Origin: Minisyncoccota bacterium
GTDB lineage: Bacteria > Patescibacteriota > Minisyncoccia > Phycocordibacterales > UBA1550
NCBI GenBank assembly: GCA_023229865.1
Contig: JALNYL010000004.1
Location: 17,773-81,772 of the forward strand
Direction: 5' to 3'
DNA length: 64,000 nt
Of this stretch, positions 21,178 to 50,605 are shown in pieces. The notes beneath the pieces are model-generated. The model worked only from the letters and a program-made list of their open reading frames with translations. It was not told the origin of the DNA and made no database searches. A program made the position numbers and the translations under genes. Positions within the stretch are counted from its first letter, which is position 1. The number at the start of each line of letters is the position of its first letter.

Positions 21178-21222
21178 CAACCCCCTGCTTTTCAAAAAAG
21201 TGGGGGTTGTTTGCACCCTTTT
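21178..21222 (+). terminator. Rho-independent terminator after nrdB
   Basis: AACAACCCCC-tgcttttcaaaaaagt-GGGGGTTGTT followed by a T-run. Confidence 0.55.
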
Positions 21223-21270
21223 TCCAGTGTAATTGAGTGCAATCTTATAGATAGTTGCTATAATGTGTCT

Positions 21271-22155
21271 ATGTCATTTTCCGTCACCAAGTTCCTTAAG
21301 GGAATAAAAGAAATAAATTTTAAATATTCATCATTTAGAAAAAATGCCAATGATCACTTGTTGATTAATGGAAATTCTGCGGATGTCCTAAAATCCTTTC
21401 CAAATGAATGTATAGATTTAATTTTTACAGACCCTCCATATAATGCTGATCTTGAGTACGGCTCTACTTATAAAGATAATTTATCTTGGGATGAATATTA
21501 TAAACAAGCAAAGAGCTGGTTCAAAGAGTATAATAGAATTTTGAGCAAGACTGGTTCTGTCTACATAATGAATTATCCAGAGGTTAATGCCCGCTTGCTC
21601 CCTTATCTCACTGACGAACTTGGCTTTAAATTGCAGCGCTGGATTACTTGGCATTACCCCACTAATATTGGGCACTCAAAGAAGAATTTCACAAGAAGTC
21701 AGAGATCTATTCTATTTTTAACAAAAACAAATAATTATACTTTTAATAGAGACAAAATTATTCAACCATATAAAAATGAGAATGTAGGTAAGATTAAAGA
21801 AAGAATTAAAAATGGCTCACGCGGGAGGGGTGCTTATGACATGCTCTCATTTCTTGATTTGCTTGAGATGAGGATTGCGGAAAAAAACTTCAACCCTCTC
21901 GATGTGCATGATGTTAATTTGCTTAAAAATATTTCAAAAGATAGATTGAATGGGAAGCATCCTTGTCAGCTCCCTTTTGAATTAATTAAGCGCTTTATAG
22001 AAGTCAGCTCTAACCCTGGGGATGTTGTTTTGGATCCATTTGCTGGTACTTTCAGTACTTCTTTTGTCGCGTCTGATTTAAAAAGAGCTTCTGTCGGTAT
22101 AGAAATTAATCCAAAATATGTTAGTCTTGGCGTTAAACGAATTAAAAATGGCTAA
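21271..22155 (+). CDS. Site-specific DNA methyltransferase, beta class (N6-adenine or N4-cytosine), DPPY motif
   Basis: Motif IV FTDPPYN lies N-terminal and motif I VLDPFAGTFSTS C-terminal (beta permutation). Extended -10 TGCTATAAT at 21256-21264 lies 6 nt before the ATG at 21271. Markedly AT-rich relative to flanking genes. Confidence 0.8.
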   Translation: MSFSVTKFLKGIKEINFKYSSFRKNANDHLLINGNSADVLKSFPNECIDLIFTDPPYNADLEYGSTYKDNLSWDEYYKQAKSWFKEYNRILSKTGSVYIMNYPEVNARLLPYLTDELGFKLQRWITWHYPTNIGHSKKNFTRSQRSILFLTKTNNYTFNRDKIIQPYKNENVGKIKERIKNGSRGRGAYDMLSFLDLLEMRIAEKNFNPLDVHDVNLLKNISKDRLNGKHPCQLPFELIKRFIEVSSNPGDVVLDPFAGTFSTSFVASDLKRASVGIEINPKYVSLGVKRIKNG

Positions 22156-23833
22156 GCAAACGGAACAACAAAAAAAAGAAAAACGACTCAGTAAGAATGT
22201 CTCAAGCACATTTAATAATGCGGGCTTTACTTGTGTGGGCAAAACTAAAGATATTGAAGTCATTGTTGACGGGCAAAAGTCGGATTTTGATAATATTTTT
22301 TATTACGAAAACAATATTATTTTTATAGAGGAGACAACAAATAGTACTTCAGAGCATGTTAGAAAAAAGTATGAATTTTATATGACATGCTGTAATAATA
22401 AAAATTTATTTTTAAATGAACTTAAAAGTAAATTTCCTGGAATTCGTAAGATTGTCACTCAGCACACTCCTTCTGAATTAAATTTTATATATGTTTATAC
22501 GTCATTAAATTCTGTTGATTGTAAATACCAAACAAGATACAAGGAAATATTTTTTTGGGACATAAAACAACTACTATATTTTTTGACCCTGTCTTCTATT
22601 ATTCAGAAAACATCAAAATATGAAATATTTACTGCCCTAGGGATACCTTTGGGGCAACAAATCAGTACCTCTACTTCTCGTGCGGGGTATGATGCAATGA
22701 TACTGCCACAAGTAGCCAGTGGTTTCCCAGATGGGTATCAAATATTCTCATTTTTTATTGATCCAGAAAATTTACTTCAGCAAGCATATGTCCTAAGAAA
22801 ATATGCCTGGTTAGACGCCGATCATTTATATCAAAGGATTTTAGTGAAAAATAAGATAAATGAAATGAGGGGGTACTTAGTTAACGAGAATAGAACATTT
22901 TTGAATAATATTATAGCCACTCTTCCAGATGACGTAAAAATAGATGATGACAAGGGTCACACCATAGCGGATGCAAGTAAATTGCGTGCTGGAGACAGAG
23001 TAAAAATACATATACCAGTTAACTCAAACAACATAGGAATTATTGATGGTCAGCATAGAATATTTGCTTATCACGAAGGTGATGATGTTCATGAGGCTAA
23101 GATATCTAAAATTAGATCAAAAAGACATCTTTTAATTACCGCAATATTATATCCGACGGGGATATCTCAAAAAGATAAGGAAGCCTTTGAGGCAAAGCTT
23201 TTTTTGGAAATAAATGACAAACAAACACCAATTAAGTCATCACTTAAACATGTAATATATACTGTAGTTGATCCATTTTCAGATATAGCTATTTCTAAAA
23301 GAATAGTACAGGAGCTATCAAAAAATGCTCCAATGAATGAAGTATTTGAAACAAATTATTTTGATAAAGGCAAACTTAGCACGACTTCAATCGTTAGTTA
23401 TGGAATAAAATATTTAGCAAAACTTGATGGTACAGACAGTCTTTTTTGTCTTTGGACAAACCCCAAAAAGGATGATTTAAAAAAGAGAAAGAGCCACAAG
23501 TTGCTGGATGCATATATTTCATTTAGTGCTACTCAGTTATCAATATTTTTGAGCGGTTTTAAGAGTGGTATTAATAAAGCAATGTGGACTCATGATCAAA
23601 AAATTAGCAAAGTTTTGACAGCGACTTCTATAAATGGGTTGATTCATTGCTTGAGATTACTTATACAAAATGGTAAGACAGGTGATTTTTTGTACTACAA
23701 TAAAAAGTTCAAGAATATAGAAAAAATAATTAATTTTTCGCCAGGGCAAAATGCAAAAGGAGAGGATTATTTCCCTTATAAATCTAGTCACTGGAAGGCC
23801 TTAGGAGAAGAAATCTACAATAAGTGCTTCTAA
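22148..23833 (+). CDS. DGQHR domain-containing protein (DndB/ParB-like nuclease superfamily) with extra N-terminal domain
   Basis: Literal DGQHR motif (NIGIIDGQHRIFAYH) embedded in a DndB-like region. Start ATG at 22148 overlaps the MTase stop (ATGGCTAA), indicating translational coupling. AT-rich, 561 aa. Confidence 0.7.
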   Translation: MAKQTEQQKKEKRLSKNVSSTFNNAGFTCVGKTKDIEVIVDGQKSDFDNIFYYENNIIFIEETTNSTSEHVRKKYEFYMTCCNNKNLFLNELKSKFPGIRKIVTQHTPSELNFIYVYTSLNSVDCKYQTRYKEIFFWDIKQLLYFLTLSSIIQKTSKYEIFTALGIPLGQQISTSTSRAGYDAMILPQVASGFPDGYQIFSFFIDPENLLQQAYVLRKYAWLDADHLYQRILVKNKINEMRGYLVNENRTFLNNIIATLPDDVKIDDDKGHTIADASKLRAGDRVKIHIPVNSNNIGIIDGQHRIFAYHEGDDVHEAKISKIRSKRHLLITAILYPTGISQKDKEAFEAKLFLEINDKQTPIKSSLKHVIYTVVDPFSDIAISKRIVQELSKNAPMNEVFETNYFDKGKLSTTSIVSYGIKYLAKLDGTDSLFCLWTNPKKDDLKKRKSHKLLDAYISFSATQLSIFLSGFKSGINKAMWTHDQKISKVLTATSINGLIHCLRLLIQNGKTGDFLYYNKKFKNIEKIINFSPGQNAKGEDYFPYKSSHWKALGEEIYNKCF

Positions 23834-38462: not shown

Positions 38463-38525
38463 TGGAGTCCTGTACAAGAATCGAACTTATGACAGTGCTT
38501 TTCAGGGCACTTACGTTGCCACTCC
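38463..38525 (-). ncRNA. tRNA-like element (acceptor-like stem GGAGT/ACTCC, T-arm TTCGATT, encoded 3' CCA) lacking a canonical D-arm
   Basis: Minus strand GGAGTGGCAACGTAAGTGCCCTGAAAAGCACTGTCATAAGTTCGATTCTTGTACAGGACTCCA. Could not be folded as a standard tRNA by eye. Confidence 0.3.
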
Positions 38526-38629
38526 GTCAACAGGCCTTGATTCCTCCACTAGCTCTATTTTATCAAAGGGAAAGGAAAAGAAAAAGGGCCCCACGTCGTT
38601 GTGGGGCCCTGGGTTGCGGCCGGAGCCGA

Positions 38630-40898: not shown

Positions 40899-43367
40899 AT
40901 GGCTCGCAAAAAAGAAGAAGAGAAGGTCCCCGAGGAGGCTTCCGTCCCACGTGTGAACGTTGTTCCTCAAGACATTTCAAGTGAAATGCGTACGTGTTTC
41001 ATCGACTACGCGATGTCGGTTATTACTGACCGTGCGCTCCCTGATGTGCGTGATGGTTTGAAGCCAGTGCATCGTCGCATCCTCTACTCGATGTACGAGA
41101 AAGGTTTGACCTACAATGCAAAATTTCGTAAATCTGCGACAGTAGTCGGAGATGTGCTTGGTAGCTACCACCCACACGGCGACTCGTCAGTGTATGAAGC
41201 GATGGTAAAAATGGCGCAGGATTTCTCTTTCCGTTATCCGCTCGTTGTTGGTCAGGGTAACTTCGGTTCTATCGACGGCGACTCAGCTGCGGCATACCGT
41301 TACACCGAGGCTAAGATGTCTCGCGTGTCAGGAGAGCTCTTGAACGATATCGATCGCGATACTGTTGATTTTAAGCCAAACTACGATGGTACCAAGAAAG
41401 AACCAACCGTACTCCCTTCTTCTCTTCCCAACCTTCTCTTGAACGGTACGCTCGGTATTGCGGTGGGTATGGCAACCAACTTCCCTCCACACAACTTGGG
41501 GGAGCTCGTGGATGCAACCAACCATCTTATTGACGACCCAGATGCAACCTCCGATGACCTTACGAAATTTGTGAAAGGACCTGATTTTCCTCTTGGTGGC
41601 GTTGTCTTTGGGGAAAAAGATATTAAGCATGCTTATTCTTCTGGGCGTGGTGGTGTCGTCGTGCGCGGTGAAGCAGAAATCGTTGAAGAGAAAAACCTCA
41701 ATCAGATTATTATTACATCACTTCCGTTTCGCGTAAACAAGGCAAACCTCATTGTGAAGATTGCTGACCTTGTGCGCGAGAAGAAGCTCGAAGGGATTAA
41801 GGGGCTTCGTGATGAATCAACGAGAGACATCCGTGTGGTTATTGACCTCAAGAATGGCGCATATCCTCAGGTTGTTCTCAACTATCTCTACAAGCACACT
41901 GAGCTTGAATCAACCTTCCACTACAACATGGTGGCGCTTGTTGATGGTGTGCCTCAGACACTTTCGCTCAAGGGTGTGCTCTCAAATTTTATTGGCCACC
42001 GACAGACCGTGGTGCGTCGTCGTACTGAGTACGATCTCCGCAAAGCAGAAGAGCGCGAGCACATTTTGCTCGGGCTCAAGAAAGCGCTTGATCATATCGA
42101 TCGCGTGATTGCGGTTATTCGCGGATCAAAGGATACGGCGACCGCACACGCAAATTTGATGAAGGAGTTTAAGTTCTCTGAGCTCCAGGCGTCGGCAATT
42201 CTCGAAATGAAGCTTCAAAAGCTCGCAGGCCTTGAGCGTAAGAACGTTGAGCTCGAACTTAAAGAAAAGCAGGATTTCATTAAAGAATGCAAAGACCTTC
42301 TTGCAAGCCCAAAGAAAATTTTGGCTGTTGTAAAGAAAGAACTCACCGTGATGAAAGAGAAGTACGGTGATGAGCGTCGCACGCGCGTGGTCAAGCACGC
42401 TGCAGGCTCAATCTCTGTTGAGGATATGATCCCCGATGAGGAATCAATGCTCGTATTTACAAAGGGTGGCTATATCAAGCGTACAAACCCAGGTGAGTAC
42501 CGTCAGCAGAACCGTGGTGGTGTGGGTGTTGTTGATTTGGATACTAAAGAAGAAGACTTCATCACGCTCTTTACTTCTGCGACAACGCACAGCGACCTCC
42601 TCTTTTTCTCAGATAAGGGCAAGGCTTACCAGATCAAGATGTACGATATCCCTGAAGGTAAGCGCGCGACACGTGGGAAGTCGATTATGAACTTCATATC
42701 ACTTTCTTCTGAGGAGAAGGTTACTTCGATTCTTGCAATGCCAAAGTCGGTAAAAGACTCAAAGCTCTCACTCTTTATGGTGACGAAACAAGGCACCGTG
42801 AAAAAAGTTTCTGCGGACAGTTTCAAGGATGTGCGCAAGACGGGAATTATTTCTATCAAGCTCGAAGCAGGGGACGAGCTTATCTCCGCACTCTTTACTG
42901 AAAAGGGAGATGATATTATTTTGACGACCGCAAAGGGTCAGGCAATCCGCTTCAAAGAATCAGATGCTCGCGAGATGGGTCGTGCGGCTGGGGGAGTCCG
43001 TGGTATCAAGCTCGGCAAGGGTGACTTCGTTATTGGCGCGGATACTATTGCCAAGGACGCAGAGAAGCCAGAGCTCTTGGTAATGAGCGAAAATGGCTAC
43101 GGTAAGAAGACTGCCGTAAAGGAATACAAGGTCCAAAAGCGCGGTGGCTCAGGTATTAAGACCGCAAAGGTGACCGCAAAGATTGGTCAGCTTATGGTGG
43201 CAAAAGTGGTGACTCCTGCGTTTGCAGAACTTGTGGCCATCTCAAAGGCAAGTCAAGTGATCCGTATCACGATGACTGATGTCCCAACGCTTGGACGCGA
43301 TACACAGGGTGTGCGCATTATGAAGCTTCGTGAAGGGGACAGTATTGCATCGCTCAGCTGTTTGTAA
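40899..43367 (+). CDS. gyrA: DNA gyrase subunit A
   Basis: N-terminal [28 protein letters not shown] with the active-site Tyr region. C-terminal beta-pinwheel repeats with a GyrA-box-like QKRGGSG. Confidence 0.9.
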
Positions 43368-43463
43368 AACAGCTGAAGATTGAATTTCGAACAAAGGGCG
43401 CGATGGTGAAGCCATCGCGCCCTTTGTGTTGCATCTACGCGTATCACGCGGTACAATATCGAA

Positions 43464-44003
43464 ATGGAAGTATCTAATTTCACTGACCCCGTTCAAGTTA
43501 TTGGTGCACTTGGTGTGTACGAAGGAATGATTGTTGCTGATCTCGGCTGCGGTGTTGGTGCGTACACATTGCCCATCGCAGAAAAAGTGGGGGAGTCAGG
43601 ACGTGTCTACGCAGTTGAAGTGCAGAAGGATTTTCTTATTAATATCAAAACAGAGGCCGCAGCGCGCGGGCTCAAAAACATTGAGCTTCTCTGGGGGAAT
43701 ATCGAAAATCTCGGCGGAACAAAAATCAAAGACGATGGCGTGGATGCGGTAATCATTTCCAACGTCCTCTTTTTGGCTGAGGATAAGAAGGGGCTCCTCC
43801 GTGAAGCGCGCCGTATTTTGAAAACAGGAGGGAAGCTCCTCCTCATTGACTGGAGTGACTCGTTCAACAATCTTGGACCATCACCAGAAATGGTGGTGAC
43901 AAAGGATGAAGCGCGCGCTCTTTGTGAAGCAGAAGGATTTGTTCTTAAGGACGAAGTCCCTGCCGGAGAGCATCATTACGGATTTATTTTTTTAAAAGCA
44001 TAA
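43464..44003 (+). CDS. Class I SAM-dependent methyltransferase
   Basis: Motif I VADLGCGVGAYT. Motif post-I/II (VYAVEV; AVIISNVL). TACAAT lies 6 nt before the ATG. Preceded by the gyrA terminator at about 43385-43425. Confidence 0.7.
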   Translation: MEVSNFTDPVQVIGALGVYEGMIVADLGCGVGAYTLPIAEKVGESGRVYAVEVQKDFLINIKTEAAARGLKNIELLWGNIENLGGTKIKDDGVDAVIISNVLFLAEDKKGLLREARRILKTGGKLLLIDWSDSFNNLGPSPEMVVTKDEARALCEAEGFVLKDEVPAGEHHYGFIFLKA

Positions 44004-44013
44004 TTATCTTACT

Positions 44014-45333
44014 ATGGATAAATCACCAAAACCTTTTCAAATTGCTGTTACTGGATTTTTCGTAGTACTCTTCATCCTCGGTTTCTTGGGATTTTCGGGA
44101 AAGCTCCCTCTCCCTTCAAGTAGTAAGGAGGTGAGTTATGGAGAAGTGACGCTTTGGGGAAGTATCTCAAGAGAGTCAATGCAGTCTCTTCTTGCGAACA
44201 ATTTTCGTGATGAAAAAAGTGTAAGCATTAAATATGAACAGAAAAACGCGACGACATTTACGCGGGATTTTGTGGAAGCACTCGCAAGTGGCAAGGGGCC
44301 CGATCTTGTGATTTTGCCACAGGAGGAACTTTTGAAAAATCTCAACAAGCTCGCCGTCATCCCTTATCAGACTATTCTTGAGCGTGATTTTAAAAATACG
44401 TTTATCGCAGAAGGGGAGATGTTTTTGCGCCCTGAGGGGACTGTTGCGTTGCCGTTTATGGTTGATCCAATCGTAATGTATTGGAATCGTGACATCTTTA
44501 CCAACGCTCTTATCGCAAAGCCACCCGTACTCTGGTCAGAGTTCTATGATTTGGTACCAAAGATCACCGTCCGTGATCGAACGGGGAACATCACCAGAAG
44601 CCTCGTGCCTTTTGGTGAATATAGAAATGTTACCAATGCAAAAGAAATTCTTTCGGTACTCCTGATGCAGGCGGGGAGCCCGGTGGTTACGAGCAAGAAT
44701 GGCAACCTCACCGCAGCGCTCGTTATTCAAGGACCCCTCAACGTGGAAAATCCTGTAGTTACTGCAATGCGTTTCTATACAGAATTTTCAAAATCTGAAA
44801 AAGATTCATACTCTTGGAATCGTTCATTACCACAATCACGCTCAATGTTTGAAGCGGGAGATCTCGCGCTTTACTTTGGGTATGCGAGTGAATACCAGTC
44901 GATTAAGTTGAAAAATCCTCACCTTAATTTTGACGTGGCGATGATTCCTCAAGTAGGGAAGACAGCAAATAAACTTACGTTTGGACGCATGCATGGCATC
45001 GCAATCGTGGGCGCAAGTAAAAACCAAGGCGGTGCCCTCCGCGCCGCGATGCTTCTTTCGGGAAGCAGTGTGATCACAGGTATTAGTGGTATTACGGGGC
45101 TTCCTCCTGTTCGTCGTGACCTCATCGCGATTCCTCCTGTCGACGCGGCACAGTCTGTCTTTTACGATTCTGCGTTGATTTCTCGCGCATGGTATGACCC
45201 ATCTCCTATTGAGACCAATGCTATTTTTATGACGATGATTGATAGTGTAAACTCGGGACGAAGCAGTATGAATGAAGCACTCGCGGTTGCACACAGTAGC
45301 CTCGCGAAGTTGTTCCAGGATTATCAGCAGTAA
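44014..45333 (+). CDS. Extracellular solute-binding protein (ABC transporter SBP-like), N-terminal TM anchor
   Basis: N-terminal hydrophobic anchor. Overall SBP family 1-like pattern. Weak assignment. Confidence 0.45.
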   Translation: MDKSPKPFQIAVTGFFVVLFILGFLGFSGKLPLPSSSKEVSYGEVTLWGSISRESMQSLLANNFRDEKSVSIKYEQKNATTFTRDFVEALASGKGPDLVILPQEELLKNLNKLAVIPYQTILERDFKNTFIAEGEMFLRPEGTVALPFMVDPIVMYWNRDIFTNALIAKPPVLWSEFYDLVPKITVRDRTGNITRSLVPFGEYRNVTNAKEILSVLLMQAGSPVVTSKNGNLTAALVIQGPLNVENPVVTAMRFYTEFSKSEKDSYSWNRSLPQSRSMFEAGDLALYFGYASEYQSIKLKNPHLNFDVAMIPQVGKTANKLTFGRMHGIAIVGASKNQGGALRAAMLLSGSSVITGISGITGLPPVRRDLIAIPPVDAAQSVFYDSALISRAWYDPSPIETNAIFMTMIDSVNSGRSSMNEALAVAHSSLAKLFQDYQQ

Positions 45334-45344
45334 TATTAAAAATC

Positions 45345-45722
45345 ATGACTCAAAAAATCACCACTACCGCAATTGCAGCAGCTATTCTCTCTCTCCCTCT
45401 CTTGTCTGCTGCTCAAGTCGGAATCCCTTGCAATGGTCCTGATTGTACCTTCGACTCGCTTATCCAGCTAGTGAATAACATCATTAAGTTTCTTATGTTT
45501 GGCGTAGCCGTCCCTCTCGCTGCTATTGGCTTTATGTTTGTGGGGGCAAAAATGGTTTTGTCATCTAATAAAGAGTCGGCAAAGACAGAAGCGAAGGAAA
45601 GTTTTGGGAATATTGTGAAAGGTTTCCTTATTATGCTTGGGGCGTACGTTGTGGTAAAAACAATCGTCTACTCATTTATTACTGATGAACAGAAGACTTT
45701 TATGGGATTCCTGTTTCAATAA
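45345..45722 (+). CDS. Pilin-like small membrane protein (TrbC/VirB2-like architecture), paralog 1
   Basis: Signal peptide, then TM1, a short Lys/Glu loop and TM2 (FLMFGVAVPLAAIGFMFVGAKMVL...FLIMLGAYVVV). Confidence 0.4.
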   Translation: MTQKITTTAIAAAILSLPLLSAAQVGIPCNGPDCTFDSLIQLVNNIIKFLMFGVAVPLAAIGFMFVGAKMVLSSNKESAKTEAKESFGNIVKGFLIMLGAYVVVKTIVYSFITDEQKTFMGFLFQ

Positions 45723-45742
45723 TTAGGAAGATAATATACAAT

Positions 45743-46246
45743 ATGAATACTATGAAAAAGATACTTGGTGGACTCGTGGTTCTAGGGGTGTTTTTAGGAG
45801 GGACTTCTGTCGCATTGGCTGTTCTGCCTTGTGCCGCTGTCCCTAGCCAGTATAAAAATGTGTGGACAGACCTTCCTGCTAGTGCGCAGCAATCTTACTA
45901 CGACATCTATTGTTCTCCTGGCACCGGCTCTACGGGGGCATCCGGCTCTACTGGTTCGGGGGCTACCTTGTCCGCAAATACGAAGTTGCAAAATCCCATC
46001 AAGTATTCAACTTTTTCTGAGTTTGCTGCAGCAATAACCAAAACAGCTGTTCAGGTCCTCCTTCCATTCATCGTCCTTGCCTTCATCTACTCAGGCTTCC
46101 TCTTTGTGAAAGCACAGGGTAACGAAAAAGAGCTCGAAGAAGCAAAGCAGGCAATCTGGTACAGTCTCATTGGTGCCTTCATTCTCCTTGGGGCGTGGGG
46201 ATTTGCGCAGATTATTAGTCAGACGGTTTCAACAATTACCCAGTAA
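45743..46246 (+). CDS. Pilin-like small membrane protein, paralog 2 (with Gly/Ser/Thr-rich insert)
   Basis: Signal peptide and the same C-terminal two-TM core (VLLPFIVLAFIYSGFLFV...AIWYSLIGAFILLGAWGF). Confidence 0.4.
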   Translation: MNTMKKILGGLVVLGVFLGGTSVALAVLPCAAVPSQYKNVWTDLPASAQQSYYDIYCSPGTGSTGASGSTGSGATLSANTKLQNPIKYSTFSEFAAAITKTAVQVLLPFIVLAFIYSGFLFVKAQGNEKELEEAKQAIWYSLIGAFILLGAWGFAQIISQTVSTITQ

Positions 46247-46252
46247 TCTACT

Positions 46253-46537
46253 ATGGACTTCAAAGAATTTGTTAATTTTCTTGTTGGCACACTTATCAAG
46301 CCACTTTTCTCGCTCTTTTTGGGTGCTGCAGTAGTCTTCTTTTTGTGGAATATGATGGGGGTCATTCAGAAGAACGATCAACCAGAAGAGCTCGCAAAGA
46401 TGAAAGAAAAGGCTATTTGGGGGATTATCGCTATCGCGGTGATGGTCTCAATGTGGGGATTGGTCAACTTTTTTGCAGGGTCACTCAGGCTGACCAATAC
46501 TCCTCTTGACCTAGAGCGTTTCAACCAAACCTTGTAG
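46253..46537 (+). CDS. Pilin-like small membrane protein, paralog 3
   Basis: AAVVFFLWNMMGV...AIWGIIAIAVMVSMWGLVNFF. Confidence 0.4.
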   Translation: MDFKEFVNFLVGTLIKPLFSLFLGAAVVFFLWNMMGVIQKNDQPEELAKMKEKAIWGIIAIAVMVSMWGLVNFFAGSLRLTNTPLDLERFNQTL

Positions 46538-46620
46538 TTTTCTCGGGGGTTTCGTATAATTAACAGATACGATCAATTAGTATTCGTACATCATAATTAA
46601 CATTTAATAAATTAATAAAC

Positions 46621-46968
46621 ATGAAAAAAGTTATTGTATTGGGTGCCTTTTTTGCCCCATTTATCGCGAGTGCTCAGATTGCCCAGGGGGCAAGTACGGT
46701 TCCTGGTCTTATTGCGTTCTTGAAGGACGCGCTTAGCACCGCTACGGTCCTTATTCTTGCAGCTGCAGTTGTATACTTCCTTTGGAACGTATTCGGCTTC
46801 GTTATGGCAGCAGGGGACTCAGATAAGCGCGCAGAGAAGCAGAGCGGTATTATCTACGGCGTTATCGGTATCGCGGTGATGGTATCTATCTGGGGCCTCG
46901 TAAACTTCCTTACGTCTTCAGCAAAGCTCGACACAACAACACGTACAGCTCCATCACTTTCTCTCTAA
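46621..46968 (+). CDS. Pilin-like small membrane protein, paralog 4
   Basis: Signal peptide. AAAVVYFLWNVFGF...IIYGVIGIAVMVSIWGLVNFL. Confidence 0.4.
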   Translation: MKKVIVLGAFFAPFIASAQIAQGASTVPGLIAFLKDALSTATVLILAAAVVYFLWNVFGFVMAAGDSDKRAEKQSGIIYGVIGIAVMVSIWGLVNFLTSSAKLDTTTRTAPSLSL

Positions 46969-46994
46969 TCCACGTTTCTTAAACCAACACCATT

Positions 46995-47237
46995 ATGAAC
47001 ATTATGCAGAGAATCAATGAGGCTATTCTTCAACCAATAGTTTCACTCCTTATGGCAGCGGCCGTAGCATATTTCTTGTTTGGTGTTATGAAGTTTGTGA
47101 AGGATCAGGGGAGTGAAGAATCTCAAGTAGAAGGGAAGAAGCATATGATGTGGGGGATTATTGGTCTTTTTATTATGGTGAGCGTTTGGGGGATATTGAA
47201 CTTTATCAATTCCTTCGTTATGGGATTTTCTCAGTAA
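46995..47237 (+). CDS. Pilin-like small membrane protein, paralog 5
   Basis: MAAAVAYFLFGVMKF...MMWGIIGLFIMVSVWGILNFI. A hairpin terminator follows at about 47255-47300. Confidence 0.4.
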   Translation: MNIMQRINEAILQPIVSLLMAAAVAYFLFGVMKFVKDQGSEESQVEGKKHMMWGIIGLFIMVSVWGILNFINSFVMGFSQ

Positions 47238-47353
47238 AGCGCCCAAACAAAAGAGAAGCCCTGCGTATGAACTACGCGGGGCTTTTCTTTTTATGCACAA
47301 AAAGAAAAGCCCCACAGCATTGCGCTGCGGGACTTTGAGGGTTGAATTGCAAA

Positions 47354-48139
47354 TTAATACTGGAGCTTCACGGAGACTAACACCTCGGGGGCATACTTTG
47401 CTGCGACCCCCGCATGAAGCATTCCATTAAAATGTCCGATTTTCGTGCCACAGTCTTGGAACCACCCCTTTGATTGGTCGTTTTCCCAAAGAAACATCCT
47501 CCCGCCAGGGCAGTAAATATCAAACACGACTCCCGTTGGGATTGGGGGAAGCTCGACATACTCATCTGGTGGGCCATCAACAATGACGGACTCGTCGTCG
47601 GGGTTGCCGTTGTTATCCTCAGCGAGGGTGTAGACGTCGGGATCGAATTTCACCCAATGACTTTTCACCTCGTGAGTGACCTCCGTGCTTGCCGCCGGCG
47701 ATGAGCTGCCGAAGGCCTCCTTGAAGAAGGTGGGGTGATTTGCTGCTCTCACACTAGCCTTCATGTCTTTCCATGTTTGGTAGACAGGTTCGGGGAGGAT
47801 GAGACCAATGGTGGCTATTGCGAAATAGCCAACCACCATCACTTTTGTTATATCGGAGACCTTGCTTCCCGTGAACAAGAGCCAGAGCCCCATGATGTGC
47901 AGGGGGATAACGACGACGGCGCCAATCACGATAAACATGCTGGAATCGTCGGGGAGCAGGTAGGCGATGCAGATGGTCACAATAAACAGGATAATCATTG
48001 CCATCCAGTTCCTGCGAACCTTTTCTTCATCCTCCTTTTTTATTTCTTCAGGAGTTGATGTGGTGGGCTTTTGTTTCTCGTTAGTCTTGGAGGATGATTG
48101 AGGCACTCTCCCGTTCATTGCATCAACTTTGCGTTGCAT
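47354..48139 (-). CDS. Membrane protein (hypothetical), second gene of a minus-strand operon
   Basis: Three or four TM helices then a soluble C-terminal domain. Overlaps the upstream gene by 17 nt. Confidence 0.4.
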   Translation of the reverse strand: MQRKVDAMNGRVPQSSSKTNEKQKPTTSTPEEIKKEDEEKVRRNWMAMIILFIVTICIAYLLPDDSSMFIVIGAVVVIPLHIMGLWLLFTGSKVSDITKVMVVGYFAIATIGLILPEPVYQTWKDMKASVRAANHPTFFKEAFGSSSPAASTEVTHEVKSHWVKFDPDVYTLAEDNNGNPDDESVIVDGPPDEYVELPPIPTGVVFDIYCPGGRMFLWENDQSKGWFQDCGTKIGHFNGMLHAGVAAKYAPEVLVSVKLQY

Positions 48140-49160
48140 TTTTGTGCTCCTTATTGTGAGTTATGGCGAGAGGCAGTCTTTCTCCAAGGCTCAATACATC
48201 GCCTTTGAAGTTTGATACCGCCCCTGCGTCAATTTCGCGATGAAGAATTTCCATGCCGCCATCGTAGCCAGCAGCAGTTCTCAGCCGCGCATCAAGTGCT
48301 TTGGCTTGTGCTACCCCGAGTGTCTCAATGCCGCGTGCTTTTTGTACAGCCGCATCTGCTTCGAGTCTCGCGATTTCAACTGCCGTAGTGGCCGCTTTTT
48401 CTTCTTCGCTTGCGCCGACAAGTTCAAAACTTACGAAGTCAACCTTGTGAACAGCAACCCCGAAGGTATCGATCACTCCCAGCGTACTGCCAGAAGTTTT
48501 ATTCACCTTTTCGATGTCAGAAGAGAAAGAACTCCCTTCACCTTCTTTATCGAGTGCACGGAAGTCGTCGTATGTTCTGCCACGTGCAAAATCTGCAATG
48601 GCCCCCTTCACGGTTGCGTTGGCGTTATTAAGCCATTTCCCCTTGAAGATAAAGACAAGTTTGATTGGGTTCACGACTCGGTATGTGACATTGACGAGGA
48701 GATTGATTTTGAAGTTTCCCTTGAGATCAACCCCCTCAACAAGAATGGGGTAGGAAGACAAGAAATACAGCGAATTCACATACTCCGACTTGCGGACGAT
48801 ATCAAAACCTTCTTCGTCTTTCGACGAATCGCCTTTAGTCAACTTGTCCCAGTCAAAGTGCCACACATGGATTTCTTTGAGCGGATACAGCAAGCTCACG
48901 AGAAACACGCCGAGAATGCTGAAGGGGCGAGAAAAGTTACTGTTCTCTCCTTCGGCAATGAGGCCAGTTTTGTAATCGTAATGGTAACCCGTCCCCTTAA
49001 GGTTCGGGATTACTTTTTCACACGACTCGCCAGCCACCACAAACTTGATCTCCCCGGTGGGGACATAACAAGTTTGTTTTTCGTAACGTGCCCCGTAGAG
49101 GAGCCAGACACAGAAAGCAATTACTGCAACAACCAAAAGTCCAACAATAAATGTGAACAT
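48123..49160 (-). CDS. SPFH/Band-7-like membrane protein (hypothetical)
   Basis: N-terminal TM, central domain with a prohibitin/stomatin-like pattern and a coiled-coil C-terminus. SD AGGAGAA. Weak family call. Confidence 0.4.
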   Translation of the reverse strand: MFTFIVGLLVVAVIAFCVWLLYGARYEKQTCYVPTGEIKFVVAGESCEKVIPNLKGTGYHYDYKTGLIAEGENSNFSRPFSILGVFLVSLLYPLKEIHVWHFDWDKLTKGDSSKDEEGFDIVRKSEYVNSLYFLSSYPILVEGVDLKGNFKINLLVNVTYRVVNPIKLVFIFKGKWLNNANATVKGAIADFARGRTYDDFRALDKEGEGSSFSSDIEKVNKTSGSTLGVIDTFGVAVHKVDFVSFELVGASEEEKAATTAVEIARLEADAAVQKARGIETLGVAQAKALDARLRTAAGYDGGMEILHREIDAGAVSNFKGDVLSLGERLPLAITHNKEHKNATQS

Positions 49161-49246: not shown

Positions 49247-49293
49247 GGTCTGCGGGTGGCAGGAAAGGCTTGGGAAATAAGACAAATTACGAG

Positions 49294-49375
49294 TGAGCAT
49301 GGGGAGACTTGAACTCCCAATCCTTACAGAATGCGCTTCTGAGACGCACGCGTATACCAATTCCGCCACATGCTC
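49294..49375 (-). tRNA. tRNA-Leu (anticodon CAG)
   Basis: Acceptor GAGCATG/CATGCTC, anticodon loop CTCAGAA, long variable arm, T-arm GGGAGTTCAAGTCTCCC. No CCA encoded. Confidence 0.75.
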
Positions 49376-49384
49376 ATTTCAGTT

Positions 49385-49425
49385 TAATTGTGCCGAGGAG
49401 AGGACTTGAACCTCCATGGGTCGCC
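49385..49425 (-). pseudogene. Partial tRNA-Leu 3' half (variable arm + T-arm + acceptor 3' strand) without a matching 5' half
   Basis: Minus-strand CGGGGCGACCCATGGAGGTTCAAGTCCTCTCCTCGGCA is nearly identical to the 3' half of tRNA-Leu(TAG). No D-arm or anticodon arm could be found. Confidence 0.45.
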
Positions 49426-49545
49426 CCGCCTTTTCTTAATGCCTGTTTCGTGTTCGCTCAACAACGGTATTTGCGCATTAGCGCACCAGATTTAAATCAA
49501 AACAGTTTGATTTAAATTCACTCGGCAAGCATATCGTGTACAAAG

Positions 49546-49627
49546 TGCTGGGAAGAGGACTTGAACCTCCATGGGTCACCCCGCTTGCTCCTAAGGCAAG
49601 TGCGTCTACCAATTTCGCCATCCCAGC
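49546..49627 (-). tRNA. tRNA-Leu (anticodon TAG)
   Basis: Acceptor GCTGGGA/TCCCAGC, anticodon loop CTTAGGA, long variable arm, T-arm GGAGGTTCAAGTCCTCT. Confidence 0.75.
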
Positions 49628-49654
49628 ACTCTATGCACGATGCGTCTACAATTT

Positions 49655-49683
49655 CTGAATCAGCAGATTCACGTCTTGGACGA
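49655..49683 (+). repeat. 29-bp repeat, copy 3, just upstream of the tRNA cluster
   Basis: CTGAATCAGCAGATTCACGTCTTGGACGA, identical to copy 1. Confidence 0.7.
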
Positions 49684-49930
49684 CCTCGGCATACAACACA
49701 TAAGGTACACTAAAATTGAAGAAAAGGCGAGGGGGGTTCACAGGATTCGCCTCTCCTTTCAGTCGAGACTAATCTTGTGTGGTCACGAGTTACTAAGTCT
49801 GCTCAGATGATTACATCCTGTGCGGACTAAGTACTCTCGACCCCGGCTCGCCATTTTGTCTGCTGACAAAATATGGCTGCGCCTTGCACAAACGGAAAAC
49901 CTGCCGCAGGGCAGGTTTTCTTATCGTTTG

Positions 49931-50003
49931 TGCACCCAGTAGGATTCGAACCTACGACCGTCTCGTTAAGAGCGAGCTGCTCTACCAACTGAGCTATGGA
50001 TGC
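49931..50003 (-). tRNA. tRNA-Lys (anticodon CTT)
   Basis: Acceptor GCATCCA/TGGGTGC (one G-U pair), D-arm GCTCAGTTGGTAGAGC, anticodon loop CTCTTAA, T-arm GTAGGTTCGAATCCTAC. Confidence 0.8.
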
Positions 50004-50272
50004 ATCTATTCTTCATCAGTAACTTTTGAGATAAACCCTCTGGGCCTACCAAAACAGTTATGGATGCATGTACGAGATATTATACACAAATAATAGAAAA
50101 TGTGAAGTGGGGGAGGCGGGATGGGACTCGCCTCTCCTTGCAGTCGAGACCATCCATTTTAATAGTCGCGTTGCTCCTTTAAAATGGTGGGCCTTCGGTT
50201 CGGGTCCCATCTACTGGATACACAATAGCAAAAAAAAGACAGGGAAGGGACCCTGTCTTTTTTTTGCTATTG

Positions 50273-50353
50273 TGTCCGGGATGGGACTCGAACCCATAAG
50301 CCTTGCGGCGGGAAATTTTAAGTCTCCTGTGTATACCATTCCACCACCCGGAC
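50273..50353 (-). tRNA. tRNA-Leu (anticodon TAA)
   Basis: Acceptor GTCCGGG/CCCGGAC, anticodon loop CTTAAAA, long variable arm, T-arm ATGGGTTCGAGTCCCAT. Confidence 0.8.
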
Positions 50354-50533
50354 ATGTTTATTTGTATTTTATTCCTGACGTTGGGTTTGTTCCGGCTTGC
50401 GATTCTGATTTTTGTACCTCAAAAATCATGTCGTAAGATTTCGAGCAACTAAGTTGCGAGAAATTTACGACCCGACGCAAGTGAAGCAGTTCACTTGCTC
50501 CCACGCCAAGAAAATCCTGGCGGATTTTCTTTG

Positions 50534-50605
50534 AGGCGTGGGCGAGAATCGAACTCGCGTATAGAGGTTTTGCAAACGACTGCCTTACCACTTGGCTACC
50601 ACGCC
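50534..50605 (-). tRNA. tRNA-Cys (anticodon GCA), imperfect anticodon stem
   Basis: Acceptor GGCGTGG/CCACGCC, discriminator U73 (a Cys identity element), anticodon loop TTGCAAA, T-arm GCGAGTTCGATTCTCGC. The anticodon stem has two mismatches. Confidence 0.6.

What the first reader, a model, noticed from the sequence alone, without database searches (positions are those of the whole stretch)
45345..47237. Five tandem paralogous pilin-like genes (signal peptide plus two TM helices)
All five products share one architecture: a cleavable-looking signal peptide, hydrophobic helix 1 (AAAVVYFLWN-like), a short Lys/Glu loop and helix 2 (IWGIIAIAVMVS(M/I)WGLVNF-like). This matches TrbC/VirB2-type pilins and some competence or T4SS minor pilins. 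Five diversified tandem copies suggest a variable surface filament, adhesin set or secretion conduit. No adjacent T4SS ATPase genes (VirB4/VirD4) are present, so the partner machinery may lie elsewhere or the family may be new.
Basis: partly seen in the sequence, partly recalled or inferred. Interest (0 to 1): 0.6.

Follow-up and report, generated by a model that had tools for sequence, protein, structure and literature searches.

The report
Five-gene VirB2-like pilin array
Five neighbouring small membrane-protein genes in an ultra-small "candidate phyla radiation" bacterium are diverged copies of the pilin of type IV secretion systems; such pilin arrays are already described for this group, so this is a well-preserved example and not a new kind of system.

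Summary
The five tandem + strand genes exist exactly as described (45345-47237). All encode a two-helix hydrophobic hairpin. Only three (pil1, pil2, pil4) have a signal peptide; pil3 and pil5 start directly at helix 1. Four pass Pfam's cut-off for PF18895 (T4SS_pilin). The first is a borderline TrbC/VirB2 (PF04956) match. There is no support for holins or type IV (prepilin) pilins.

The source is a Paceibacteria (Ca. Yonathbacteria-like) genome assembled from a metagenome. The array lies among housekeeping genes (gyrA, methyltransferase, solute-binding protein, pilins, tRNAs, infB). None of the 40 window ORFs scanned is a VirB4, VirD4, VirB6 or VirB3.

The same gene order recurs in 15 species-level relatives, and 5-6-gene arrays occupy the same position in six deeper lineages. 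Estimable dN/dS is 0.02-0.18, so this is an old set of non-redundant paralogues, not a fast-varying cassette.

VirB2-like pilin arrays of 2-11 genes in Patescibacteria, many far from virB4, are published (PMC12102498; essential in Southlakia, PMC10633639). That paper scores a Yonathbacteria assembly carrying the orthologous array as VirB4-positive.

Most likely these are subunits of a T4SS pilus or conduit assembled by machinery encoded elsewhere. Verdict: new member of a known kind, modest interest.

The parts
43391..43427 (+). Strong hairpin after gyrA. It probably marks the upstream boundary of the transcription unit that holds the pilin array.
   Evidence: RNAfold of the 96-nt gyrA-methyltransferase spacer gives a 17-bp stem; the whole spacer folds at dG -40.2 kcal/mol. 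Function is inferred.
43464..44003 (+). Class I SAM methyltransferase gene, tightly coupled (10-nt gap) to the next gene. It is a conserved upstream neighbour; a functional link to the pilins is not shown.
   Evidence: Pfam Methyltransf_31/11/25 and Ubie. Gaps. Present upstream of the array in 21 of 23 species-level loci.
44014..45333 (+). Membrane-anchored solute-binding-protein-like gene (439 aa) that ends 11 nt before pil1. It is immediately upstream of the first pilin gene in every related Paceibacteria locus that has the block.
   Evidence: Pfam SBP_bac_1 and SBP_bac_8. Adjacency is conserved while SBP identity falls to 36-42%. No permease or ATPase partner is adjacent. A functional link is inferred only.
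45345..45722 (+). pil1: signal peptide, conserved Cys-x4-Cys loop at the mature N-terminus, and a two-helix hairpin. It is the most divergent member and TrbC/VirB2-like.
   Evidence: PF04956 TrbC 25.5 bits (cut-off 27.9) and PF18895 21.6 bits. Of 15 orthologues, 10 hit TrbC and 6 hit T4SS_pilin at E<=0.01. hhalign against the pil4 group gives probability 71%. Cys loop seen.
45743..46246 (+). pil2: signal peptide, hypervariable Cys- and Gly/Ser/Thr-rich N-terminal extension, and a conserved 84-aa pilin core.
   Evidence: PF18895 33.5 bits, above the 26.6 cut-off. Across 17 genomes the core averages 67% identity and the extension 20%.
46253..46537 (+). pil3: pilin core without a signal peptide, starting 6 nt after the pil2 stop codon.
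   Evidence: PF18895 34.5 bits. ORF limits. Some relatives carry a signal-peptide-bearing N-terminal extension in front of the same MDFK motif.
46538..46620 (+). 83-nt AT-rich spacer between pil3 and pil4. It is the only long spacer in the array and a possible internal promoter for pil4-pil5.
   Evidence: This spacer is the longest in 9 of the 10 arrays measured (76-219 nt; the other spacers are mostly under 40 nt). The sigma-70 consensus scan found no + strand promoter here, so the promoter role is conjecture.
46621..46968 (+). pil4: signal peptide (ASA|Q), pilin hairpin and a conserved Thr-rich C-terminal tail with an invariant Pro. It is highly conserved.
   Evidence: PF18895 35.3 bits. 97% identical to the L002 orthologue, dN/dS 0.022. 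The AF2 model shows helices 27-62 and 67-100 with pLDDT 86-91 over residues 41-90. Invariant columns.
46995..47237 (+). pil5: minimal 80-aa (77-aa by the NCBI start) pilin core without a signal peptide. It is the best family match and highly conserved.
   Evidence: PF18895 43.9 bits. NCBIfam NF045849 37.1 bits, below the cut-off of 40. NCBI names it 'pilin'. 98% identical to the L002 orthologue.
47249..47295 (+). Intrinsic terminator-like hairpin plus T-run closing the array. It faces the terminator of the convergent downstream gene (47336-47306, - strand).
   Evidence: RNAfold gives a 19-bp stem at dG -29.9 kcal/mol, followed by T-rich sequence.

Best explanation
The five genes are an ancient chromosomal array of VirB2/TrbC-superfamily pilins (Pfam PF18895 'T4SS_pilin') in a Paceibacteria (Ca. 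Yonathbacteria-like) member of the Patescibacteria/CPR.

Proposed mechanism:
- Each product inserts into the cytoplasmic membrane as a helical hairpin. pil1, pil2 and pil4 use a Sec/signal-peptidase-I signal peptide. pil3 and pil5 insert without one.
- A monoderm-type T4SS (VirB4, TrsD, VirB3, VirB6), encoded elsewhere on the chromosome, extracts the subunits and polymerises them into a pilus-like filament or conduit at the contact with a host cell.
- The well-conserved pil4 and pil5 are the candidate bulk subunits.
- pil1 (disulfide loop) and pil2 (hypervariable extension) are candidate surface-exposed, partner-specific subunits.

Shown: family membership, hairpin architecture, conserved order, purifying selection, and absence of a T4SS ATPase in the window. 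Inferred: polymerisation, division of labour among the five, dependence on a distant VirB4, and topology.
For: Family and fold:
- PF18895 is above its gathering score for pil2 to pil5, and pil1 is a borderline TrbC/VirB2 match.
- All four PF18895 members have sub-threshold hits to NCBIfam 'pilin-like conjugal transfer protein' NF045849.
- The AF2 model is a confident two-helix hairpin.

Conservation:
- The five-gene order pil1 to pil5 is kept in 15 species-level relatives, and 5-6-gene arrays sit at the same locus in six deeper lineages.
- dN/dS, where estimable, is 0.02-0.18, against 0.02-0.04 for gyrA.
- The pil4-pil5 pair occurs alone in L023.
- The pil2 extension is hypervariable on a conserved core.

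Link to T4SS:
- In Peribacterales the same family lies about 6 kb from a VirB4-like ATPase.
- Literature: 441 VirB2 arrays of 2-11 genes in 383 Patescibacteria assemblies, with the pilin gene near virB4 in only 1135 of 1948 assemblies (PMC12102498).
- The Yonathbacteria assembly that carries the orthologous array (L012 = RIFCSPHIGHO2_02_FULL_44_14) is scored 'VirB4 present'.
- The pilin array in the Southlakia T4SS cluster is essential (PMC10633639; PMC12857230).
Against: - No pilus has been seen in any Patescibacterium, and polymerisation is untested.
- No VirB4, VirB6, VirB3 or VirD4 lies within 45 kb upstream or 17 kb downstream, nor within +-10 kb in 22 related Paceibacteria loci.
- I could not show directly that this genome has a VirB4.
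- Two members lack the signal peptide typical of VirB2, TrbC and TraA.
- Sequence and fold searches against solved pilins gave nothing significant; helical hairpins are poorly discriminated by such searches.
- The loop between the helices is charge-balanced, not basic, so the predicted topology is not backed by the positive-inside rule.
Confidence: 0.6

Rival explanations
1. The proteins are membrane-resident subunits of the monoderm T4SS translocon and do not form an extracellular pilus. They would resemble small two-helix proteins such as PrgF of pCF10 or the Mycoplasma ICE Mbov_0395 family. The five paralogues would form or line the channel in the cytoplasmic membrane.
For: - Monoderm T4SSs generally lack pili (PMC12857230).
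- pil5 is the same size and design as PrgF (75 aa, helix-loop-helix).
- The best NCBIfam matches are to a Mycoplasma ICE protein family.
- In the paper's Table S3, two Nomurabacteria genomes list 'VirB2, PrgF, PrgF' at consecutive CDSs far from VirB4.
- pil3 and pil5 lack signal peptides.
Against: - PrgF itself does not hit PF18895, and its profile alignment to the pilins is weak (hhalign probability 10%).
- The NF045849 hits are below the cut-off.
- The long, hypervariable, Cys-containing extracellular extensions of pil1 and pil2 are easier to explain on an exposed structure.
Confidence: 0.25
2. The array works independently of any T4SS, as part of the methyltransferase-SBP-pilin transcription unit. 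For example, the hairpin proteins could act as envelope or uptake components cooperating with the orphan solute-binding protein.
For: - The SBP gene ends 0-12 nt before, or overlaps, the first pilin gene in nearly all related Paceibacteria loci, even at 36-42% SBP identity.
- There is no permease or ATPase partner next to the SBP.
- Hairpins flank the unit.
- No T4SS genes are nearby.
Against: - The whole neighbourhood (S1, gyrA, MTase, SBP, pilins, infB) is syntenic, and genes are tightly packed throughout, so adjacency alone is weak evidence.
- pil4-pil5 pairs (L023) and Peribacterales arrays (L029, L034) have no SBP neighbour.
- The family is defined by T4SS association, and the arrays in Southlakia lie inside the T4SS cluster.
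Confidence: 0.1
3. The genes encode an unrelated class of small membrane proteins: holins, type IV (prepilin-peptidase-dependent) pilins, or secreted peptides.
For: The small two-TM architecture is shared with class II holins. One insignificant Pfam hit: Phage_holin_3_6, E 0.13, for pil1.
Against: - No PHROGs holin family matches any of the five.
- There is no endolysin or phage context.
- There is no class III prepilin leader motif in any sequence.
- Four of five pass the PF18895 cut-off.
Confidence: 0.02

Closest known systems
VirB2-like pilin arrays of Patescibacteria (Quinonero-Coronel et al. 2025, PMC12102498; Southlakia epibionticum T4SS cluster SEML1_0006-0019, Wang et al. 2023, PMC10633639)
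   Same: - Same Pfam families (PF18895, PF04956).
- Tandem array of 2-11 divergent paralogues. Intra-array identity here is 15-48% where alignable, against a published mean of 25% and maximum of 54%.
- Chromosomal, with no relaxase nearby, in a monoderm CPR bacterium.
   Different: - This array is not in a T4SS cluster. It sits in a housekeeping block at least 45 kb upstream or 17 kb downstream from any virB4.
- The paper found arrays most abundant in Microgenomatia and Saccharimonadia; this one is Paceibacteria.
- I additionally find fixed gene order across a family- to order-level clade, purifying selection, and tight coupling to an SBP gene. I did not see these points in the parts of that paper I read.
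TrbC/VirB2/TraA conjugative pilins of diderm T4SS (PF04956; A. tumefaciens VirB2, RP4 TrbC, F TraA)
   Same: Small size, helix-loop-helix hairpin, and a signal-peptidase-I-type leader in pil1, pil2 and pil4. pil1 scores 25.5 bits on PF04956.
   Different: - Below the family cut-off, and the organism is a monoderm.
- Two members have no leader.
- No adjacent VirB5, VirB6 or VirB4.
- No evidence for cyclisation or a TraF-type peptidase.
- No significant sequence or Foldseek match to solved pilins.
Mycoplasma ICE 'Mbov_0395 / MMCAP2_0565 family pilin-like conjugal transfer protein' (NCBIfam NF045849)
   Same: About 80 aa, two helices, from a monoderm MPF-FATA-type element. pil2 to pil5 align over nearly the whole model (E 1.6e-5 to 1.9e-9).
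   Different: All scores (24.5-37.1 bits) are below the equivalog cut-off of 40. That family is a single-copy ICE gene; this is a chromosomal five-gene array.
PrgF of Enterococcus pCF10 (MPF-FATA component of unknown function)
   Same: 75 aa with the same TM1, charged loop, TM2 design as pil5, encoded in a monoderm T4SS operon.
   Different: Homology is not demonstrated here (hhalign probability 10%; PrgF does not hit PF18895).
Tandem virB2 paralogues of Bartonella and Anaplasma T4SS
   Same: Multiple diverged VirB2 copies side by side, interpreted as surface variation.
   Different: Those are recent, fast-diversifying copies inside or beside virB operons of diderm pathogens. Here the paralogues are old, positionally orthologous across genera, and under purifying selection.

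Membership tests
Pfam PF18895 T4SS_pilin | Whole-protein score at or above the gathering cut-off (26.6 bits) | tested here: met
   pil2 33.5, pil3 34.5, pil4 35.3 and pil5 43.9 bits. pil1 scores only 21.6 bits and is not met for that member.
Pfam PF18895 T4SS_pilin | Two hydrophobic helices joined by a short polar loop | tested here: met
   Hydropathy scan of all five. AF2 model of pil4: helices 27-62 and 67-100, pLDDT 86-91 over residues 41-90.
Pfam PF04956 TrbC/VirB2 pilin | Score at or above the gathering cut-off (27.9 bits) | tested here: not met
   pil1 scores 25.5 bits (E 1.6e-5). Of 15 pil1 orthologues, 10 hit at E<=0.01, best 8.8e-6. pil2 to pil5 do not hit.
Pfam PF04956 TrbC/VirB2 pilin | N-terminal leader removed by signal peptidase I, with or without C-terminal trimming or cyclisation | tested here: inconclusive
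   AXA-type sites follow an N-terminal hydrophobic segment in pil1, pil2 and pil4. There is no leader in pil3 or pil5. Processing and cyclisation cannot be tested in silico here.
Patescibacterial VirB2-like pilin array (PMC12102498) | Two or more PF04956/PF18895 genes in tandem or separated by one non-pilin gene, with low mutual identity | tested here: met
   Five consecutive genes with gaps of 6-83 nt. MAFFT identity is 17-27% to pil1; BLASTP gives 27-48% where alignable.
Patescibacterial VirB2-like pilin array (PMC12102498) | The genome also encodes a Patescibacteria-clade VirB4 | not tested
   Not found in the window or in 5 kb of left flank. The paper's Table S1 scores the assembly of locus L012, which carries the orthologous array, as VirB4-positive.
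Complete T4SS gene cluster | VirB4 ATPase plus VirB6/VirB3-type membrane proteins encoded next to the pilin gene(s) | tested here: not met
   Forty window ORFs were scanned with Pfam and none is a T4SS component. No VirB4-sized unassigned ORF lies within +-10 kb in 22 Paceibacteria loci. In Peribacterales a VirB4-like gene is 6 kb from three such pilin genes.
Type IV pilins (T4P / competence pseudopilins) | Class III leader ending in Gly, followed by F/M-T-L-I-E (prepilin peptidase site) | tested here: not met
   Reading the five N-termini shows no such motif. There is no Pfam pilin/N_methyl hit.
Holins | Match to a holin family and a lysis-cassette context | tested here: not met
   No PHROGs holin hit. 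The only Pfam hit is E 0.13 for pil1. Neighbours are housekeeping genes.
NCBIfam NF045849 (Mbov_0395 pilin-like conjugal transfer protein) | Score at or above the equivalog cut-off (40 bits) | tested here: not met
   pil2 24.5, pil3 26.3, pil4 28.9 and pil5 37.1 bits.
PrgF (pCF10, MPF-FATA) | Detectable homology to PrgF | tested here: inconclusive
   hhalign of the pilin profile against PrgF gives probability 10%, E 0.003, over 36 columns. The CONJScan FATA_prgF profile used in the literature was not available.

The most novel reading that the evidence does not exclude
The five paralogues are non-redundant subunits of one heteromeric filament or conduit. That structure would be genetically and functionally coupled to the upstream membrane-anchored solute-binding protein (and perhaps the methyltransferase), forming a host-tapping nutrient-capture device. 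It would be maintained at a fixed chromosomal site across a large Paceibacteria clade and would work with, or even without, the distant VirB4 machine.
Probability: 0.1. Interest if true: 0.65.

Novelty: new member of a known kind. Interest (0 to 1): 0.3.

Why it matters
What the T4SS and its unexpected VirB2-like pilins do in Patescibacteria is an open question. These organisms are monoderm, ultra-small and host-dependent. The system is essential in the one species tested, yet no pilus has been seen and no substrate is known.

This locus does not change that picture, but it adds a clean comparative case.
- In a Paceibacteria clade the array is detached from virB4.
- It is kept in the same order at the same housekeeping locus, across relatives whose GyrA identity falls to 82-86%.
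- Its members evolve under purifying selection.
- It splits into conserved core members (pil4, pil5) and members with variable exposed extensions (pil1, pil2).

This argues for five distinct roles in one structure and against interchangeable antigenic variants. It also nominates pil4 and pil5 as the subunits to look for in filaments.

Tried and rejected

2. Direct search for VirB4 in this lineage.
- Look-ups of window-edge genes either failed or returned short contigs.
- The 86-kb source contig and the 784-kb contig of a close relative could not be read beyond +-10 kb.
- A VirB4-like seed from Peribacterales (L029) retrieved only Peregrinibacteria/Peribacteria proteins.
- The HMMER search of representatives gave 150 unnamed sequences, and the cluster look-up gave no organism names.

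3. Solute-binding-protein homologue search. This was meant to test whether SBP-pilin adjacency survives outside the syntenic block. It returned only relatives at >=54% identity, so it was uninformative.

4. PrgF homology gave weak results.

5. Holin and phage readings were rejected.

6. Recent duplication or gene conversion was rejected. The only DNA-level similarity is 57 nt of the helix-2 coding region, at 61-77% identity.

7. An internal sigma-70 promoter in the pil3-pil4 spacer is not supported by the consensus scan.

8. The first genome-collection query with the five-paralogue alignment failed because it had no conserved stretch. It was redone with pil4 orthologues.
Full report
**Observation**

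The region 45345-47237 holds five consecutive + strand ORFs at exactly the reported coordinates:

| gene | coordinates | length |
|---|---|---|
| pil1 | 45345-45722 | 125 aa |
| pil2 | 45743-46246 | 167 aa |
| pil3 | 46253-46537 | 94 aa |
| pil4 | 46621-46968 | 115 aa |
| pil5 | 46995-47237 | 80 aa |

A hydropathy scan finds two strongly hydrophobic helices in each, separated by a short Lys/Glu/Asp-rich loop.

Paralogy is real but graded (BLASTP).
- pil3, pil4 and pil5 share 37-48% identity.
- pil2 is 27-32% identical to pil4 and pil5.
- pil1 matches only pil2 (27%, E 4e-5).
- A profile of pil1 orthologues aligns to a profile of pil4 orthologues over the whole signal peptide, helix, loop and helix (hhalign probability 71%, E 3.7e-5).

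The claim that all five carry a signal peptide is wrong.
- Only pil1, pil2 and pil4 have a third, N-terminal hydrophobic segment, ending in AXA-type sites (SAA|Q, ALA|V, ASA|Q).
- pil3 and pil5 start 10-15 residues before helix 1, and their ORFs cannot be extended.

**Family**

Pfam places pil2 to pil5 in PF18895 T4SS_pilin, above the gathering score (33.5-43.9 bits against 26.6). pil1 is just below the cut-offs of both PF04956 TrbC/VirB2 (25.5 against 27.9) and PF18895 (21.6). Among 15 pil1 orthologues, 10 hit TrbC and 6 hit T4SS_pilin at E<=0.01. pil1 is therefore a divergent member that bridges the two families.

NCBIfam gives sub-threshold, nearly full-length hits to NF045849, the Mycoplasma ICE 'pilin-like conjugal transfer protein'.

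The other readings fail.
- No holin family matches in Pfam or PHROGs.
- None of the N-termini has a prepilin-peptidase motif, so these are not type IV pilins.

An AlphaFold2 model of pil4, built with 70 homologues, is a helical hairpin (helices 27-62 and 67-100, pLDDT 86-91 over residues 41-90) preceded by the leader helix. Sequence-profile and Foldseek searches of the PDB gave nothing significant. This is expected for a 70-residue hairpin, but it means the fold adds no independent proof.

**Organism and context**

The exact proteins come from a metagenome-assembled genome labelled Candidatus Pacebacteria/Paceibacterota (tags M0P64_02230 and following, 86-kb contig). NCBI already names pil5 'pilin'. 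Relatives are Ca. Yonathbacteria, Nomurabacteria and Taylorbacteria.

The neighbourhood is housekeeping:
- upstream: S1 protein, gyrA (40899-43367), a SAM methyltransferase and a membrane-anchored SBP_bac_1 protein (44014-45333);
- then the pilins;
- downstream: two convergent genes of unknown function, a tRNA cluster and infB.

Forty window ORFs were scanned with Pfam, including every ORF of 480 aa or more. None is a VirB4, VirD4, VirB6, VirB3 or TrsD. Five further kilobases of left flank also have none. So the array has no T4SS partner within 45 kb upstream or 17 kb downstream.

**Evolution**

A scan of one genome per species with pil4 orthologues returned 23 loci. A custom HMM and BLAST assignment show the following.
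- The order pil1-pil2-pil3-pil4-pil5 is kept in 15 species-level genomes (one has an extra pil4-like gene).
- Arrays of 5-6 genes occupy the same position in six deeper lineages.
- Only the pil4-pil5 pair is present in one low-GC genome (L023).
- Three genes are present in a Peribacterales genome (L029).
- The block gyrA-methyltransferase-SBP-pilins persists while GyrA identity falls to 62-68% and SBP identity to 36-42%.

Against the closest relative (L002, GyrA 97%), the identities are pil1 82%, pil2 79%, pil3 83%, pil4 97% and pil5 98%. Nei-Gojobori dN/dS across the four comparisons is 0.02-0.18 for the pilins and 0.02-0.04 for gyrA, where dS was estimable; dS is near saturation.

The only DNA-level similarity between paralogues is the helix-2 coding segment (61-77% over 57 nt). 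The duplications are therefore old and there is no recent gene conversion.

Within pil2 the 84-residue core averages 67% identity across 17 genomes. The N-terminal extension averages 20% and ranges from 40 to 104 residues, often with a Cys pair and a Gly/Ser/Thr/Pro-rich linker. pil1 orthologues keep two invariant cysteines flanking a loop of variable length at the mature N-terminus.

The picture is a stable set of five non-redundant paralogues: conserved cores, plus variable exposed parts on pil1 and pil2. It is not a rapidly diversifying cassette.

**Operon anatomy**

- A strong hairpin follows gyrA (43391-43427), and another closes the array (47249-47295, dG -29.9 kcal/mol).
- Gaps inside the unit are 10 nt (methyltransferase-SBP), 11 nt (SBP-pil1), then 20, 6, 83 and 26 nt.
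- The pattern of a small, a 6-nt, a large and a ~23-nt gap recurs in relatives. The large pil3-pil4 spacer might hold an internal promoter, but the sigma-70 consensus scan does not find one.
- By eye, four of the five pilin genes lack a Shine-Dalgarno sequence, although many other genes in the window have GGAGG.

**Partner machinery**

Direct evidence obtained here comes from Peribacterales. Three PF18895 genes lie about 6 kb from a VirB4-like ATPase (P-loop_TraG, AAA_10, DUF87, TraC_F_IV), with housekeeping genes in between. Dispersed T4SS parts therefore occur in this phylum.

Literature evidence:
- Quinonero-Coronel et al. 2025 found VirB2-like pilins in 1948 VirB4-positive Patescibacteria assemblies. 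The pilin gene was near virB4 in only 1135 of them. They found 441 arrays of 2-11 pilin genes with mean identity 25%.
- Their Table S1 scores Ca. Yonathbacteria RIFCSPHIGHO2_02_FULL_44_14 as VirB4-positive. That assembly carries the orthologous array (L012).
- Their Table S3 lists Nomurabacteria genomes with 'VirB2, PrgF, PrgF' at consecutive CDSs about 240 genes from VirB4.
- In Southlakia epibionticum the pilin series inside the T4SS cluster is essential. A 2025 review speculates that it forms a pilus-like conduit for signal exchange or uptake from the host.

My attempts to find the VirB4 of this lineage directly failed.

**Mechanism and rivals**

Best explanation (confidence 0.6): the five proteins are T4SS pilin subunits.
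- They are inserted as membrane hairpins.
- A VirB4-type machine encoded elsewhere assembles them into a pilus or conduit at the host interface.
- pil4 and pil5 are the bulk subunits.
- pil1 and pil2 carry exposed, partner-specific extensions.

Only family, architecture, conservation and context are shown. Assembly, topology and division of labour are inferred.

Main rival (0.25): they are membrane-resident translocon subunits like PrgF or Mbov_0395, without a pilus. PrgF has the same design, but homology is not demonstrated.

Minor rival (0.1): a T4SS-independent role coupled to the SBP. This rests only on adjacency within a block that is syntenic as a whole. It is weakened by arrays without an SBP.

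Holin and type IV pilin readings are rejected.

**Verdict**

The signal-peptide claim is only partly right. The suggestion that the family may be new is wrong. This is a new member of a known kind: the Patescibacteria VirB2-like pilin array.

Its modest added value has three parts:
- detachment from virB4;
- deep positional conservation with fixed gene order;
- the split into a conserved core and variable extensions, which favours distinct roles for the five subunits.

Interest 0.3.

Noticed in passing
window 47354-48139 (- strand): A 261-aa membrane protein with a Lys/Glu-rich N-terminus, three TM-like segments and a Cys-containing C-terminal domain, convergent with the pilin array. It is hypervariable: about 30% identical to the syntenic gene in L002, while the flanking genes are 94-98% identical (dN/dS about 0.5). 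No Pfam family matched; the only PHROGs match is insignificant.
   Followed up: partly
window 48123-49160 (- strand): A 345-aa protein with an N-terminal TM segment and no Pfam hit. It is conserved downstream of the array in many relatives. The gene at the same position in L026 (11420-12631, - strand) hits SPFH/Band_7, though BLASTP did not pair the two. It may be a membrane-scaffold protein.
   Followed up: partly
window 21211-23833: A low-GC islet (GC 0.33 against about 0.47 elsewhere) holding a DndB-like protein (PF14072), next to an N6/N4 DNA methyltransferase. It is probably a horizontally acquired defence or modification module.
   Followed up: no
window 44014-45333: An orphan membrane-anchored SBP_bac_1 solute-binding protein with no permease or ATPase genes beside it. 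Its stop codon lies 0-12 nt from, or overlaps, the first pilin gene in nearly all related Paceibacteria loci.
   Followed up: partly
window 45320-47000 (start regions of pil1 to pil5): Four of the five pilin genes have no recognisable Shine-Dalgarno sequence; pil2 has AGGAAG 14 nt upstream. Several other genes in the window have strong GGAGG sites.
   Followed up: no
window 49293-50605 (- strand): A cluster of five tRNA genes (Leu-CAG, Leu-TAG, Lys-CTT, Leu-TAA, Cys-GCA) between the array's downstream neighbours and infB. Rfam also reports a weak tRNA-like match at 38466-38536 (- strand, 35 bits) that ARAGORN did not call.
   Followed up: no
L008 3290-3763, L015 9117-9626; proteins P0073, P0078, P0108: In some relatives the pil3 orthologue carries an extra N-terminal signal peptide and a linker with a repeated 'PYFVGP' motif, in front of the same internal MDFK start. 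The leaderless form in the window looks like a derived truncation, or an alternative start.
   Followed up: partly
L033 (pCF10) 19545-19772: PrgF, a pCF10 T4SS operon protein of unknown function, is a 75-aa two-helix hairpin much like pil5. It weakly hits Maff2 and DUF4134 instead of PF18895. This leaves open whether monoderm T4SSs have an unrecognised VirB2-like component.
   Followed up: partly
L034 10001-19734; L029 201-9663: In Peribacterales the VirB4-like ATPase and a three-gene PF18895 array are separated by DHH phosphoesterase, rbfA, fmt, an SLH-domain protein and metG. T4SS parts are interleaved with housekeeping genes there too.
   Followed up: partly
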